Positions 2,032-4,932 of a DNA stretch of 64,000 bases are shown piece after piece. How positions within the stretch are numbered: the stretch's first letter is position 1; every line of letters starts with the position of its first letter. The stretch spans positions 344-64,343 of the forward strand of contig JACPHC010000003.1 in the NCBI GenBank assembly GCA_016188775.1, given 5' to 3'. Origin of the DNA: Parcubacteria group bacterium (GTDB taxonomy: Bacteria > Patescibacteriota > Minisyncoccia > JACPHC01). Under the pieces are notes generated by a model that was given only the letters and a program-made list of their open reading frames with translations, ran no database searches and was not told the origin of the DNA. The position numbers and the translations under genes were made by a program.

Positions 2032-4932
2032 ATGTTCAATAAACACAAAAACGCCGGTTTCGCGACCTTGCTGACAATAGTAATTATTTTAGGCCTTAGC
2101 CTGATTATCGTCAGCGGTTTTTCCGTTGCCAGTCTGTCTAATATCCGTGAATCCAAACGCGCTATTAACTCTTCTAAAACTCAATACGTCGCCGAGGCTG
2201 GGATCGAAGACAGTCTTTATCGGATTATAGCCGGGAAACAATACACGGCGACTAATAATTTAGCGGTTGGCGAAGGAACCGCCATCACTAACATTACCGA
2301 TGTTTCCGGCAATAAAATTATCACTTCTCTGGGCAACCGAGAAAATATTTTTAGAAAACTGGAAACAAAATTATCCGTTTCCACTCAAAGCGTTCAATTT
2401 TTCTACGGCGCTCAAATCGGCGAAGGGGGCGCCACTCTTAATAATGGCGCCGAAATCAATGGCAATGTCTATTCCAACGGCAATATTGTAATGACTGCCA
2501 ACGCTAAAATTAGCGGCGGCGCTATTGTGGCCGGCGGCATCGCCCCAACGCCCGATCAGCAATGGACCATTGGAAATTCCGATTTTCCTTTTGGACTGAC
2601 CACTGGCACAACCGCCATCACCGTTGATGAGCCGGGCGATATCGGCGACTATAACGCATTAACTTTGGGTTCTGACGGACTAGCCCGGATCAGCTATTAC
2701 GACGCGTCCAATAATGATCTTAAATACGTCCGTTGTACTTCAGCCGACTGTGTTTCAAAAAATATTACTACAATTGATTCTAGCGGCGATGTCGGATTTC
2801 GTTATACTTCCATTGCCATTGCCCTGGATGGATTGGCCCGAATCAGTTATTACAATAATACTAACGGCGACCTAAAATACGTTCAATGCGCCAATGACGA
2901 CTGCACGACAAAAAATATCGCCACTATTGATTCCAGTGGCGATGTCGGCCAATTCAACTCTCTGGCTTTAGGCACTGACGGATTGGCCCGAATCAGCTAT
3001 TACGCCGTCTCGGGCGGCAATCTTAAATTCCTTCACTGTTTGAACGATAACTGTTCATTGCGAAACACTTACACTGTTGACTCAATTGGCGATGTGGGCA
3101 AATACACTTCAATAGTCTTGGATCAAAACAACATCGCGATGATCAGTTATCTTGACGAAACCAATGATGATTTAAAATTTACCCAATGTTTAAATGTTGA
3201 TTGCTCCGCGGTCAATAATTACATCGTTGACTCAACCGGCGATGTCGGCCAATTCAAAACTTCCATCGCTCTTGGGTCTGACGAACTGGCCCGAATCAGT
3301 TATTATGACGACACGGGTAAGGATCTTAAATACGCTCAATGTTTAAACATCAGTTGCACGCTTAAAAATATAACTATTGTGGACTCGGCAGATCAAGTTG
3401 GAAAATACAGCTCGCTTCGACTTAATCCGGCTGACGGATTGGCCCGAATTTCTTATTATGACGCGACCAACGGCGCTGCTAAATTCGCCCGATGCTTAAA
3501 CGATTCTTGCTCCCAAAAAAATATTTCCACTCCGGATACCACCGGCAATGTCGGGCTTTACACTTCTTTGGCGATGGCTCAAGACGGCTTTGGCCAAATC
3601 AGTTATCGCGATGACACGAATCAGGATTTAAAATTTCTCAAATGCGCTGATCCGGATTGTAATCCGGGACAAACCACCGGCGACGCGGCTCAAAGTTTTA
3701 TTCCGTCAGCCACTAATCTTTTGCGTAAAATCAGCCTCAATATCAAAAAAATCGGCAGTCCGGGTGATGCCACCGTCAGGATAATGGCCAATAAATCTCC
3801 ACAAAATGTTCCGGATAAAGATAATACATTAACCACTGGCACGCTTTATTCTTCGATGGTCACTGGCAGTTATGGCTGGGTGGACGCGGCTTTTGTCACT
3901 AATCCGACTTTAAATATCGGACAAACTTATTGGATTGTTATTGACGCGGTTAATGATTCCAATAATTATTGGGTTTGGGCTAAAGATAATACCGACGCTT
4001 ATGTTTCCGGCACTGGTAAATTCGCTTTAAATTGGGATATTTCGCCCAATAACTGGTCAAGCGCGGGCGGCGATCTTGATTTTAAAACTTGGATGGCCGG
4101 AACTGTGACGAAAATAGATGGTGGCGTTGTTTCCGACGCGGCTCAAGCCAATACTTTAATCAACACCAAAATCTGCGGGGACGCTTATTTTCAAGCCATT
4201 GACGCTTTTTCGCTCAATTTCGTCAATAATCCGACCAATCCCGATTGCGCTAATCCTTTAACTCCGGGCATGTCTTTTCCCGGTTCCTCCGACCCTTCTC
4301 CGCTGGCTATGCCTATTTCCGACGGCCAAATTGACGCGTGGAAAACCGACGCCCAAGCCGGCGGCGTTATTGCCGGAGATTACAACGTGACTTCTGATGT
4401 CAGTCTTGGTCCGAAAAAAATCACCGGCAATCTTAATATGACCAGTAACAATAGAACTCTGACCGTCACCGGAACAATTTATATCGCGGGCAATATAGAT
4501 ATTGCCAACAATTCAAGAATCCGCTGCGACGCTTCTTACGGGATAAATTCATGCGTTGTTGTGGCGGACGGTTGGATTCATATTTCCAATAACGGACAAT
4601 TCGCCGGATCGGGTCAGGCCGGCAGTTATATTATGCTGCTGACGACCGCTCCCTGCAAAGGAACCGGTTTTTCCAATCCGCCAACGCCTTGCGCCTCCGC
4701 CCACCATGAAGCCAGCGTTGACCTTCATAACAGCGCCACCGGAATAATTTTTTACGCCAAAAACGGACTGATTAATCTTCATAACACAGTTAATGTCACG
4801 GAATTGTCGTCTTTTAAACTGGCGCTGGATAACAACGCCGTGATAAATTACGAACAAGGACTGCAAAACGCTCAGTTCACTTCCGGCCCAAGCGCGGGCT
4901 ATAAAATCGAATACTGGAAAGAAGTGCCTTAA
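2032..4932 (+). CDS. Large pilus-associated protein: pilin-like N-terminal helix, eight tandem ~44-aa Cys-containing repeats (propeller-like) and a C-terminal beta-helix-like region; putative tip adhesin
   Basis: [22 protein letters not shown] is a pilin-like N-terminus. The repeat unit is GDVGxYTS(I/L)AL..[26 protein letters not shown]..KNI..IDS, eight copies. The ORF-track start at 1966 (TTG) lies inside a MITE fragment, so the ATG at 2032 is preferred. Confidence 0.6.
   Translation: [966 protein letters not shown]
2631..3670 (+). repeat. Eight tandem 132-nt coding repeats inside the large pilus-associated gene
   Basis: Recurring GACGGATTGGCCCGAATCAG(C/T)TATTAC at 132-nt spacing (around 2679, 2830, 2983, 3284, 3436). 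Confidence 0.75.

What the first reader, a model, noticed from the sequence alone, without database searches (positions are those of the whole stretch)
2032..4932. Large pilus-locus protein with eight near-perfect 44-aa repeats, each carrying a conserved Cys pair: putative propeller-type tip adhesin
The repeat consensus is GDVGxYTSIAL..[37 protein letters not shown]. The copies are still 70-80% identical at the DNA level (132-nt period over 2631-3670), so the array is young or homogenised and could expand or contract. A 44-aa period with a ...DG..RI.YY... strand pattern fits beta-propeller blades. The gene follows two pseudopilins and begins with a pilin-like hydrophobic N-terminus. The C-terminal third has beta-helix-like N-rich repeats. 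I do not recognise the repeat as a named family.
Basis: partly seen in the sequence, partly recalled or inferred. Interest (0 to 1): 0.7.

Follow-up and report, generated by a model that had tools for sequence, protein, structure and literature searches.

The report
Propeller-carrying tip pilin of CPR pilus
This gene from an ultrasmall Parcubacteria (CPR) bacterium most likely encodes the capping subunit of a type IV pilus, a ComZ/GspK-like minor pilin with a seven-bladed, lectin-like propeller built into it; this is a new variant of a known kind of pilus-tip protein, and its proposed role in binding is inferred, not shown.

Summary
There are seven units of 50-51 aa (150-153 nt), not eight of 44 aa. 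They span aa 202-554 (nt 2635-3693). Units are 34-62% identical in protein and 42-67% in DNA, so they are neither near-perfect nor young. Each unit does carry a CxxxxC pair.

AlphaFold2 (pLDDT 87.8) predicts:
- a 60-residue pilin helix and a four-stranded sheet;
- a beta-solenoid;
- a seven-bladed propeller;
- a choice-of-anchor-R beta-sandwich;
- a second beta-solenoid part.

The best PDB matches for the propeller are Photorhabdus PLL/PHL lectins, by fold only.

So this is a ComZ/GspK-class tip pilin with a propeller nested inside it. The closest functional precedent is the propeller-bearing PilX2 of Saccharibacteria TM7x, which promotes host binding.

The repeat family has no name but is very widespread (at least 14,800 clusters). 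The adhesin or lectin function is inferred. Verdict: new variant of a known kind.

The parts
4..252 (+). C-terminal end of the first minor pilin of the four-gene set (slot 1). The start of the window cuts off its 5' part.
   Evidence: blastp gives 36-56% identity to the C-termini of the slot-1 genes in L001, L003, L005 and L006.
789..1277 (+). Minor pilin, slot 2. It has a canonical class III signal: KNG|FGLVE, with Glu5.
   Evidence: Weak N_methyl hit; regex hit; 32-36% identity to slot-2 genes of five relatives.
1310..1864 (+). Minor pilin, slot 3. It has a canonical class III signal: KNG|FTLIE, with Glu5.
   Evidence: PF07963 N_methyl at 1.7e-4 (21.5 bits against a cutoff of 21.2); weak ComGE/ComGF/GspI hits; slot-3 orthology.
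2032..4932 (+). The gene of the finding: a 966-aa modular minor pilin in slot 4, the GspK/PilX/ComZ position.
   Evidence: ORF; identical to NCBI 'hypothetical protein HYV52_00995, Parcubacteria group bacterium'; conserved synteny.
2032..2058 (+). Putative leader peptide MFNKHKNAG (aa 1-9), ending in the Gly that would precede prepilin-peptidase cleavage. Cleavage is inferred.
   Evidence: G9 and A11 are at least 90% conserved in 50 orthologs. The pattern is a basic leader, then G, then [FYQVA]-A, with no Glu at +5 in any ortholog.
2059..2379 (+). Pilin module (aa 10-116): a long alpha-1 helix (model residues 7-66) with a hydrophobic first half and the conserved SE(A/S)G(I/V)ED motif, followed by a four-stranded antiparallel sheet (aa 74-116).
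2410..2628 (+). First part of the beta-solenoid (aa 127-199).
   Evidence: Short regular strands in AF2. Aligns to P0078 residues about 127-196. The P0078 model matches ComZ and ice-binding solenoids.
2629..3699 (+). Seven-bladed beta-propeller (aa 200-556). The seven 50-51-aa units cover aa 202-554 (nt 2635-3693), each with a CxxxxC pair. It contains no Trp and is net acidic.
   Evidence: Unit table. AF2 gives 28 strands at pLDDT mostly above 90. Foldseek finds PLL/PHL lectins at E 4e-13 with TM 0.75-0.81. Composition. The domain is absent from slot-4 proteins P0078 and P0099.
3700..4101 (+). Beta-sandwich homologous to the choice-of-anchor R domain (aa 557-690).
   Evidence: NF041539 scores above its cutoff in orthologs P0003 (551-686) and P0019 (537-682) and in P0078. 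There is no direct hit on the window protein at E up to 0.1. AF2 strands.
4102..4929 (+). Second part of the beta-solenoid plus long terminal strands (aa 691-966).
5671..6753 (+). pilM
   Evidence: TIGR01175 at 1.5e-46; slot orthology.
6881..7456 (+). pilN-like gene (slot 5 of the downstream set)
   Evidence: blastp to slot-5 genes; those in L001, L006, L008, L009 and L010 carry PF05137 PilN hits.
7759..8456 (+). Two small conserved downstream genes (7759-8145 and 8142-8456, slots 6 and 7). A PilO/PilP-like role is assumed from position only.
   Evidence: Weak blastp to slot-6 and slot-7 genes of relatives; same gene order in all loci.

Best explanation
The gene encodes the 'K-type' (GspK/PilX/ComZ-class) minor pilin of a Parcubacteria type IV pilus. 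It is built as nested modules. A pilin module carries an ice-binding-protein-like beta-solenoid, as in Thermus ComZ. Between the two solenoid segments lie a seven-bladed, Cys-pair, lectin-like propeller and a choice-of-anchor-R beta-sandwich.

Proposed mechanism:
1. The protein enters the membrane through its class-III-type N-terminus and is probably cut after Gly9.
2. Together with the three canonical minor pilins encoded just upstream, it forms the priming complex on the PilC/PilM/PilN platform.
3. Because it lacks Glu5 and is very bulky, it caps the filament.
4. Polymerisation of major pilin then pushes it outward, so the propeller and solenoid sit at the distal tip.
5. There the propeller, with seven pseudo-symmetric sites, binds a conserved surface ligand, most plausibly a glycan on a host cell or matrix.

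What is shown: sequence features, operon position, predicted folds, and the modular presence or absence of the propeller.
What is inferred: cleavage, tip location, ligand binding and the type of ligand.
For: - Operon position. The gene is fourth after three small pilin genes and before pilM and pilN. Relatives from Terrybacteria, Sungbacteria, Azambacteria and Giovannonibacteria show the same order, preceded by pilB and pilC. Slot-by-slot orthology holds.
- N-terminus. Slots 2-3 in the window, and slots 1-3 in most relatives, have G|F/YxL(I/L)E with Glu5. Slot 4 never has Glu5 but keeps the Gly and the hydrophobic helix. Published work states that the K/PilX subunit lacks Glu5 and caps the tip (PMC7541494, PMC9934059).
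- Predicted structure. AF2 gives pLDDT 87.8, with helix 7-66, a four-stranded sheet, solenoid, seven blades of four strands, sandwich and solenoid.
- Propeller fold. Foldseek places PLL/PHL/PLL2/PLL3 lectins first (E 4e-13, TM 0.75-0.81).
- Family hits. PilX_N hits occur in relatives, and choice-of-anchor R in orthologs.
- Precedent. TM7x PilX2 is a Glu5-less-type minor pilin with a heptabladed propeller that also resembles PLL-type lectins. Deleting it halves host binding (PMC11623550).
Against: - No Pfam or NCBIfam model (PilX_N, N_methyl, choice_anch_R) reaches significance on the window protein itself.
- A profile of 50 orthologs finds no PDB sequence relative.
- The Foldseek alignment to ComZ has a low TM score (0.21-0.26) and rmsd of 20 A. 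The ComZ, GspK and solenoid matches come from a 43%-identical homolog modelled at pLDDT 73.8, not from the window protein.
- The PLL lectin sugar sites use Trp pairs (PMC5584973), and this propeller has no Trp. Lectin activity therefore cannot be transferred from that family.
- The propeller is the most conserved domain among orthologs (56%, against 31-35% for the pilin module). That does not fit a rapidly changing host-specificity determinant.
- No prepilin peptidase, major pilin or pilB/pilC gene was identified in the window. A regex for canonical pilin N-termini found only the two minor pilins. In relatives pilB and pilC lie upstream, which here is beyond the window start and probably the contig end.
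- No experimental data exist for this family.
Confidence: 0.6

Rival explanations
1. It is a competence-pilus DNA receptor like Thermus ComZ. The solenoid-pilin scaffold would bind extracellular DNA at the pilus tip, and the propeller would be an accessory.
Against: There is no sequence homology to ComZ, so its two DNA-binding lysines cannot be mapped. The propeller is net acidic, with 45 D+E against 27 K+R. In TM7x, mutants of the propeller-pilin system were not affected in competence (PMC11623550). The added lectin-like propeller and CBM-like sandwich point to carbohydrate or surface ligands. The two roles are not mutually exclusive.
Confidence: 0.17
2. It is a membrane-anchored surface or assembly-platform protein that is never built into the filament. 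The N-terminal helix would act only as a signal anchor, and the ectodomains would act at the cell surface.
For: The window protein has no significant N_methyl or PilX_N hit. ComZ and TM7x PilX1/PilX2 are likewise not predicted PilD substrates (PMC6561018, PMC11623550). The ectodomain is very large (about 900 aa).
Against: The Gly-hydrophobic N-terminus is conserved. The pilin-type helix plus four-stranded sheet matches GspK, GspI and S. sanguinis PilA. The gene occupies a fixed fourth slot after three canonical minor pilins. From general knowledge, CPR cells lack an outer membrane and secretin, so a bulky tip faces no channel limit.
Confidence: 0.12
3. It is a tip-displayed glycan-degrading enzyme. 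A sialidase- or glycoside-hydrolase-like propeller, or a lyase-like beta-helix, would cut host envelope polysaccharide.
Against: The best propeller matches are non-catalytic lectins. No glycosidase or lyase family hits the protein. The best solenoid matches are non-enzymatic: ComZ, ice-binding proteins and tapirin. No catalytic motif was identified.
Confidence: 0.06
4. One reading: the repeat array is a young or homogenised, length-variable (contingency-like) tract.
For: Some close relatives of seven-blade proteins have fewer blades: P0049, P0048 and P0052 have 5, P0056 has 4, and P0036 and P0054 have 6 CxxxxC units. In the five-blade gene of L008 the blades are 70% (up to 85%) identical in DNA and share an exact stretch of 59 nt.
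Against: In this window the units are 57% identical in DNA, with at most 19 nt of exact match. TRF finds nothing. Codon sharing is near the random expectation. Blades within a protein are no more alike than across orthologs. 48 of 50 orthologs keep seven blades. A closed propeller constrains the number of blades. The short variants may be repeat collapse in metagenome assemblies.
Confidence: 0.05

Closest known systems
ComZ of Thermus thermophilus (PDB 6QVI), a competence-associated tip pilin
   Different: There is no detectable sequence homology. The CPR scaffold carries an extra choice-of-anchor-R sandwich and, in this gene, a 357-aa seven-bladed propeller. DNA binding has not been tested. 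The organism lacks an outer membrane and secretin (general knowledge).
PilX2 of Nanosynbacter lyticus TM7x (Saccharibacteria), PMC11623550
   Same: Both are Patescibacteria proteins: the largest minor pilin of the locus, with a non-canonical signal peptide and a heptabladed propeller. The nearest solved structures of PilX2 are also PLL/CV39L-type lectins. Its deletion halves host binding, which makes it the best functional precedent.
   Different: The PilX2 propeller is described as made of RCC1 repeats and as C-terminal. Here the repeat is an unnamed 50-aa Cys-pair unit with no RCC1 hit, it lies between two solenoid segments, and a beta-sandwich follows it.
GspK / PilX, the 'K' subunit of the H-I-J-K minor (pseudo)pilin tip complex (PF14341 PilX_N)
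   Different: The window protein itself does not reach any PilX_N threshold. GspK carries an alpha-helical insert, not a solenoid, propeller and sandwich.
PilY1 / PilC tip adhesins of diderm type IVa pili
   Same: They are tip-associated, carry a roughly seven-bladed propeller, and have variable adhesive modules.
   Different: [quoted passage not shown] There is no PilY1/PilC Pfam hit and no PilY1 among the top 50 structural matches.
Modular pilins PilB (vWA) and PilC (ConA-like lectin) of Streptococcus sanguinis
   Same: The design principle is the same: a functional binding module carried by a pilin and shown at the tip of the filament (PMC8179133, PMC9934059).
   Different: Their modules are grafted at the C-terminus rather than placed between parts of another domain, the folds differ, and their pilin modules have canonical Glu5.
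Photorhabdus PLL/PHL 'bangle' lectins and CV39L
   Same: Both are seven-bladed propellers with four-stranded blades of about 48-50 residues. They are the best Foldseek matches (E 4e-13, TM 0.75-0.81).
   Different: Sequence identity is only 9-12% with no profile match. The PLL sugar sites use Trp pairs (PMC5584973), and this propeller has no Trp. PLL-family blades carry no per-blade CxxxxC pair (PHL has one inter-subunit Cys). PLL lectins are soluble oligomers.

Membership tests
K-type minor pilin (GspK/PilX class) | Class-III-type N-terminus: a short basic leader ending in Gly, then about 20 hydrophobic residues | tested here: met
   The N-terminus reads [30 protein letters not shown]. G9 and A11 are at least 90% conserved in 50 orthologs.
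K-type minor pilin (GspK/PilX class) | No Glu at position 5 of the mature protein, while the partner minor pilins have it | tested here: met
   Position +5 is Leu here, and no ortholog has Glu there. The upstream pilins have FGLVE and FTLIE. The rule is taken from PMC7541494 and PMC9934059.
K-type minor pilin (GspK/PilX class) | Significant match to PF14341 PilX_N | tested here: inconclusive
   The window protein has no hit at E up to 1. P0078 hits at 2.2e-7, above the cutoff, and 4 of 50 orthologs hit at E up to 0.01.
K-type minor pilin (GspK/PilX class) | Pilin fold: a long alpha-1 helix packed on an antiparallel sheet, similar to GspK | tested here: met
K-type minor pilin (GspK/PilX class) | Encoded as the last gene of a four-gene minor-pilin set inside a type IV pilus operon | tested here: met
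K-type minor pilin (GspK/PilX class) | Processed by prepilin peptidase and located at the filament tip | not testable with these tools
   This needs biochemistry or imaging.
ComZ-type solenoid pilin | An ice-binding-protein-like beta-solenoid built into the pilin framework | tested here: met
ComZ-type solenoid pilin | Sequence homology to ComZ | tested here: not met
   A profile of 50 orthologs finds no PDB sequence at E up to 10.
ComZ-type solenoid pilin | DNA binding | not testable with these tools
   -
PilY1/PilC adhesins | C-terminal PilY1/PilC propeller domain (Pfam Neisseria_PilC) on a non-pilin protein with a type I signal peptide | tested here: not met
   No such Pfam hit at E up to 1. 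The N-terminus is pilin-like. PilY1 is not among the top 50 Foldseek matches.
PLL-family bangle lectins | Seven-bladed propeller of four-stranded W-motifs | tested here: met
   Foldseek E 4e-13, TM (target) 0.75-0.81.
PLL-family bangle lectins | Sequence relationship and conserved Trp-based sugar sites between blades | tested here: not met
   9-12% identity, no profile hit, and zero Trp in aa 200-556. The site description comes from PMC5584973.
TM7x PilX2-type propeller pilin | Propeller made of RCC1 repeats | tested here: not met
   No RCC1 or RCC1_2 hit on the window protein.
Choice-of-anchor R domain (NF041539) | Score above the curated cutoff (30 bits) | tested here: inconclusive
   The window protein has no hit at E up to 0.1. 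Orthologs P0003 (40.5 bits), P0019 (37.5 bits) and P0078 (35.5 bits) pass, in the region homologous to aa 557-690.

The most novel reading that the evidence does not exclude
The 50-aa Cys-pair propeller may be an unnamed but very widespread extracellular ligand-binding (lectin-like) module, found in at least 14,800 clusters at 50% identity and in giant proteins of up to 7,237 aa. Some CPR lineages would have nested it inside their ComZ-like tip pilin. Its presence, absence or blade number at one fixed operon slot would then set what the pilus of these episymbionts can grasp, making this protein the primary host- or substrate-recognition device of many Parcubacteria.
Probability: 0.3. Interest if true: 0.65.

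Novelty: new variant of a known kind. Interest (0 to 1): 0.45.

Why it matters
CPR/Patescibacteria are thought to live attached to other microbes, and type IV pili are their best-conserved surface machinery. Apart from Saccharibacteria, it is not known what their pili bind.

This gene family gives a concrete, testable candidate for the tip receptor in Parcubacteria-type lineages. It shows a ComZ-like solenoid pilin outside Thermus, and a natural with/without-propeller series at one locus that could be used for comparative or heterologous binding studies. It also points to a large propeller family that has no name in Pfam or NCBIfam.

It does not overturn any concept. Modular tip pilins, and propeller-bearing pilins in Patescibacteria, are already published.

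Tried and rejected
- Pfam and NCBIfam scans of the window protein gave only sub-threshold noise: DUF4959, Bactofilin, chorismate synthase and others.
- Searches of the PDB by single sequence and by profile found nothing usable. The LolA hit at E 0.14 was treated as chance.
- TRF found no DNA tandem repeat in the gene.
- Hits of relatives to the zinc-binding families PyrI_C, Ogr_Delta and DNA_ligase_ZBD were considered as a clue that the Cys pairs bind metal. I set this aside. The hits have no significant stretch of their own and fit the bare CxxxxC spacing. One Cys pair per blade across an odd number of blades cannot form the usual four-Cys sites.
- PilY1 membership was rejected.
- The 'young or homogenised array' idea was rejected for this gene.
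- A motif scan of the window for further canonical pilin N-termini or further copies of the repeat found none.
- A literature search on 'choice-of-anchor' gave nothing relevant to type R.
A natural propeller-less homolog was used in their place.
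Full report
**1. What is in the sequence**

The longest ORF runs from a TTG at 1966. The ATG at 2032 begins [14 protein letters not shown]..., and this is the start of the identical NCBI protein ('hypothetical protein HYV52_00995, Parcubacteria group bacterium', 966 aa, on a 64,697-nt contig). The stop codon is at 4930-4932.

The ISY motif recurs at residues 220, 271, 321, 371, 422, 473 and 523, a spacing of 50-51 residues. 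CxxxxC pairs sit at 235/240, 286/291, 336/341, 386/391, 437/442, 488/493 and 538/543.

Cutting at the GDVG motif gives seven units of 50-51 aa. They cover aa 202-554, which is nt 2635-3693.

| Measure | Value |
|---|---|
| Protein identity between units | 34-62%, mean 48% |
| DNA identity between units (codon-aligned) | 42-67%, mean 57% |
| Tandem Repeats Finder rows in the gene | none |
| Longest exact DNA match between two units | 19 nt |
| Same codon where the amino acid is shared | 51%, against 43% expected |

The period (44 aa / 132 nt), the copy number (eight), 'near-perfect' and '70-80% at DNA level' are all wrong.

**2. Not a young or homogenised array**

Fifty full-length orthologs of 37-71% identity were aligned (alignment A1).

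- 48 of them have seven CxxxxC units at 50-aa spacing, and two show six.
- I cut all 350 blades out of A1 and realigned them. Different blades of one protein are 52% identical. The same blade in different orthologs is 56% identical. Different blades in different orthologs are 51% identical.
- So there is no excess similarity within a protein, which is what gene conversion or recent duplication would produce. The blades look alike because all are held close to one strong consensus: [50 protein letters not shown].

One caveat applies to relatives, not to this gene. A few proteins closely related to seven-blade ones are shorter. P0049, P0048 and P0052 have five blades, and P0056 has four. In the five-blade gene of an Azambacteria MAG (L008) the blades are 70% identical in DNA (up to 85%) and share an exact stretch of 59 nt. 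This could be real unequal recombination or repeat collapse during assembly. I could not tell which.

**3. Predicted structure**

AlphaFold2 with alignment A1 gave mean pLDDT 87.8 and pTM 0.57. The elements, in order:

| Residues | Element |
|---|---|
| 7-66 | one long helix |
| 74-116 | four antiparallel strands |
| 127-199 | short, regularly spaced strands |
| 204-556 | 28 strands, seven blades of four (pLDDT mostly above 90) |
| 562-690 | beta-sandwich |
| 690-966 | short regular strands again, then long terminal strands |

Foldseek against the PDB puts the Photorhabdus seven-bladed 'bangle' lectins PLL, PHL, PLL2 and PLL3 first (E 4e-13 to 6e-11, TM on the target 0.75-0.81, 9-12% identity). 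Sialidases and glycoside hydrolases follow, then CV39L lectin.

The resemblance is in fold only.
- A profile of the 50 orthologs finds no PDB sequence at all.
- The PLL/PHL sugar sites are built from Trp residues between blades (PMC5584973), whereas aa 200-556 here contain no Trp.

**4. Locus and position**

In Terrybacteria (L001, L002), Sungbacteria (L003, L004), Azambacteria (L005, L008) and other CPR contigs (L009-L012), orthologs lie in the same gene order:

[histidine kinase, response regulator] - pilB (T2SSE) - pilC (T2SSF) - three small pilin genes - this gene - pilM - pilN - two small genes.

A slot-by-slot blastp links the window genes to these slots.

| Window coordinates | Slot |
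|---|---|
| 4..252 | C-terminal end of minor pilin 1 |
| 789..1277 | minor pilin 2 |
| 1310..1864 | minor pilin 3 |
| 2032..4932 | slot 4 (this gene) |
| 5671..6753 | pilM (TIGR01175 at 1.5e-46) |
| 6881..7456 | pilN-like |
| 7759..8145 and 8142..8456 | the two small genes |

pilB and pilC would lie upstream of the window, and probably beyond the end of the contig.

The two complete upstream pilins have canonical class III signals with Glu5: KNG|FGLVE and KNG|FTLIE. The slot-4 protein and all 50 orthologs keep a basic leader, a Gly, [FYQVA]-A and a hydrophobic stretch of about 22 residues. None has Glu at +5. They then share an SE(A/S)G(I/V)ED motif.

Published work states that the K/PilX subunit of the four-member minor-pilin complex lacks Glu5, caps the filament and carries PF14341 (PMC7541494, PMC9934059). 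PF14341 PilX_N is significant in the relative P0078 (2.2e-7) and appears in 4 of 50 orthologs. It is not detected in the window protein itself.

**5. The propeller is an inserted module in a ComZ-like scaffold**

Relatives of about 600 aa align to the window protein on both sides of the propeller and lack only the propeller.
- P0078 (614 aa) aligns to residues 4-188 at 37% identity and to 551-964 at 43%.
- P0099 (586 aa) aligns to the same two flanking regions.
- Both occupy exactly the same operon slot.

In orthologs and in P0078, the region homologous to aa 557-690 matches NCBIfam NF041539 (choice-of-anchor R) above its cutoff.

I modelled P0078 with 13 short homologs (pLDDT 73.8), so that the propeller would not dominate the fold search.
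- Foldseek puts Thermus thermophilus ComZ first (E 2.9e-5, but TM only 0.21-0.26).

The ComZ paper reports the same pair of matches for ComZ itself: GspK for its pilin domain and an ice-binding protein for its solenoid. That paper argues ComZ can only fit at the pilus tip (PMC6561018).

The family is therefore a ComZ/GspK-class solenoid pilin. In this gene, a propeller and a beta-sandwich lie between the two solenoid segments in the sequence.

**6. The repeat family**

A full HMMER scan used the propeller (aa 196-556) against 1.84 billion representatives of clusters at 50% identity. It finds 14,808 proteins at E up to 1e-3 and 3,524 at E up to 1e-30. They include giant proteins of up to 7,237 aa with many matching stretches.

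The module also combines with NosD-type beta-helices, NHL, RCC1 and fn3 domains, for example in Nitrospiria proteins at 48-52% identity.

The only named-family similarities are weak BNR_4 and DUF1936 matches in some members. The repeat is thus unnamed but common, and it is not specific to pili.

**7. How it most likely works**

Shown:
- a pilin-type N-terminus without Glu5;
- the fourth slot after three canonical minor pilins;
- a predicted pilin fold, solenoid, seven-bladed propeller and sandwich;
- modular presence or absence of the propeller at a fixed slot.

Inferred:
- cleavage after Gly9;
- assembly with the three upstream pilins into a priming complex that ends up as the filament cap;
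- display of the propeller at the tip;
- multivalent binding of a surface ligand, probably a carbohydrate;
- pilus dynamics that then bring the cell and its target together.

Two points support the inference.
- From general knowledge, CPR cells have no outer membrane or secretin, so a tip of this size would not have to pass a channel.
- Nanosynbacter lyticus TM7x offers a precedent. Its PilX2 is a minor pilin with a non-canonical signal peptide and a heptabladed propeller that also resembles PLL-type lectins. It is needed for efficient host binding but not for filament formation (PMC11623550).

Two observations limit the adhesin reading.
- The PLL sugar-site residues are absent.
- The propeller is the most conserved part of the protein among orthologs (56% mean pairwise identity, against 31-35% for the pilin module). 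This suggests a conserved ligand or a structural role, not a fast-changing host-specificity determinant.

**8. Rivals**

- **ComZ-like DNA receptor.** This cannot be excluded for the scaffold. The propeller is net acidic, and the TM7x propeller-pilin system did not affect competence (PMC11623550).
- **Glycan-degrading enzyme at the tip.** The only support is low-ranked structural hits.
- **Non-filament membrane protein.** The pilin fold and the operon slot argue against it.
- **Variable-length contingency array.** Rejected for this gene (section 2).

**9. Novelty**

The following are already published:
- modular pilins (PMC8179133, PMC9934059);
- solenoid pilins (PMC6561018);
- a propeller-bearing minor pilin in Patescibacteria (PMC11623550).

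I did not find a description of this particular arrangement: a ComZ-like scaffold with a choice-of-anchor-R sandwich and a nested Cys-pair propeller, together with its natural propeller-less counterparts. NCBI calls the protein hypothetical. I rate it a new variant of a known kind, of moderate interest.

Noticed in passing
window 1283-1301, 1868-1886, 4953-4971, 5425-5443, 5607-5625, 35962-35980: A REP-like palindrome, TACGAGGCTTAGCCTCGTA, occurs six times (up to 2 mismatches on the better-matching strand) where none is expected by chance. Five copies lie in the pilus operon: in the gaps between minor pilins 2 and 3, between pilin 3 and the big gene, just after its stop codon, inside the Y1 transposase ORF (there it encodes YEAKPR), and upstream of pilM. 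The 16-nt tandem at 4928-4961 is a duplicated half-site. The copies might act as hairpin terminators or mRNA stabilisers, or as targets of the adjacent transposase.
   Followed up: partly
window 4952-5596 (-): An IS200/RAYT-like Y1 transposase gene (PF01797 at 4.2e-9) lies between the big gene and pilM, flanked by the palindrome as 31-nt inverted repeats. The orthologous loci examined have no gene between slot 4 and pilM. A Giovannonibacteria locus (L007, 2369-3025) also has a Y1_Tnp gene inside its pil operon, between pilB and pilC.
   Followed up: partly
window 309-740 (+): A Trp-repressor-family gene (PF01371 at 2.5e-8) lies between minor pilin 1 and minor pilin 2. Relatives have no gene there.
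   Followed up: no
L008 3001-5628 (P0049); also P0048, P0052, P0056, P0036: Close relatives of seven-blade proteins have only 4-6 blades. In L008 the five blades are 70-85% identical in DNA and share an exact stretch of 59 nt. This is either real contraction and homogenisation or collapse during metagenome assembly.
   Followed up: partly
L001 1501-2936, L005 1351-2671, L006 409-1821, L007 1-582: A histidine kinase and response regulator pair lies directly before pilB in four CPR lineages. This suggests that a two-component system controls this pilus operon.
   Followed up: no
window 2608-2634 (aa 193-201, TAITVDEPG): A strand that resembles the fourth strand of the repeat unit (KNITTVDSS) precedes the first full unit, and the seventh unit has a divergent fourth strand. 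This could be a 'velcro' closure of the propeller.
   Followed up: no
window 8564-8635 and 8645-8715 (+): Two tRNA genes lie directly after the last small gene of the pilus operon. The 136-aa ORF at 8282-8692 (-) overlaps them and is probably spurious.
   Followed up: no
P0121-P0254: The same Cys-pair propeller occurs in giant proteins of 3,000-7,237 aa, with up to 13 separate matching stretches. It has no Pfam or NCBIfam name. Weak hits of its CxxxxC hairpin to zinc-binding families (PyrI_C, Ogr_Delta) appear in several relatives.
   Followed up: partly
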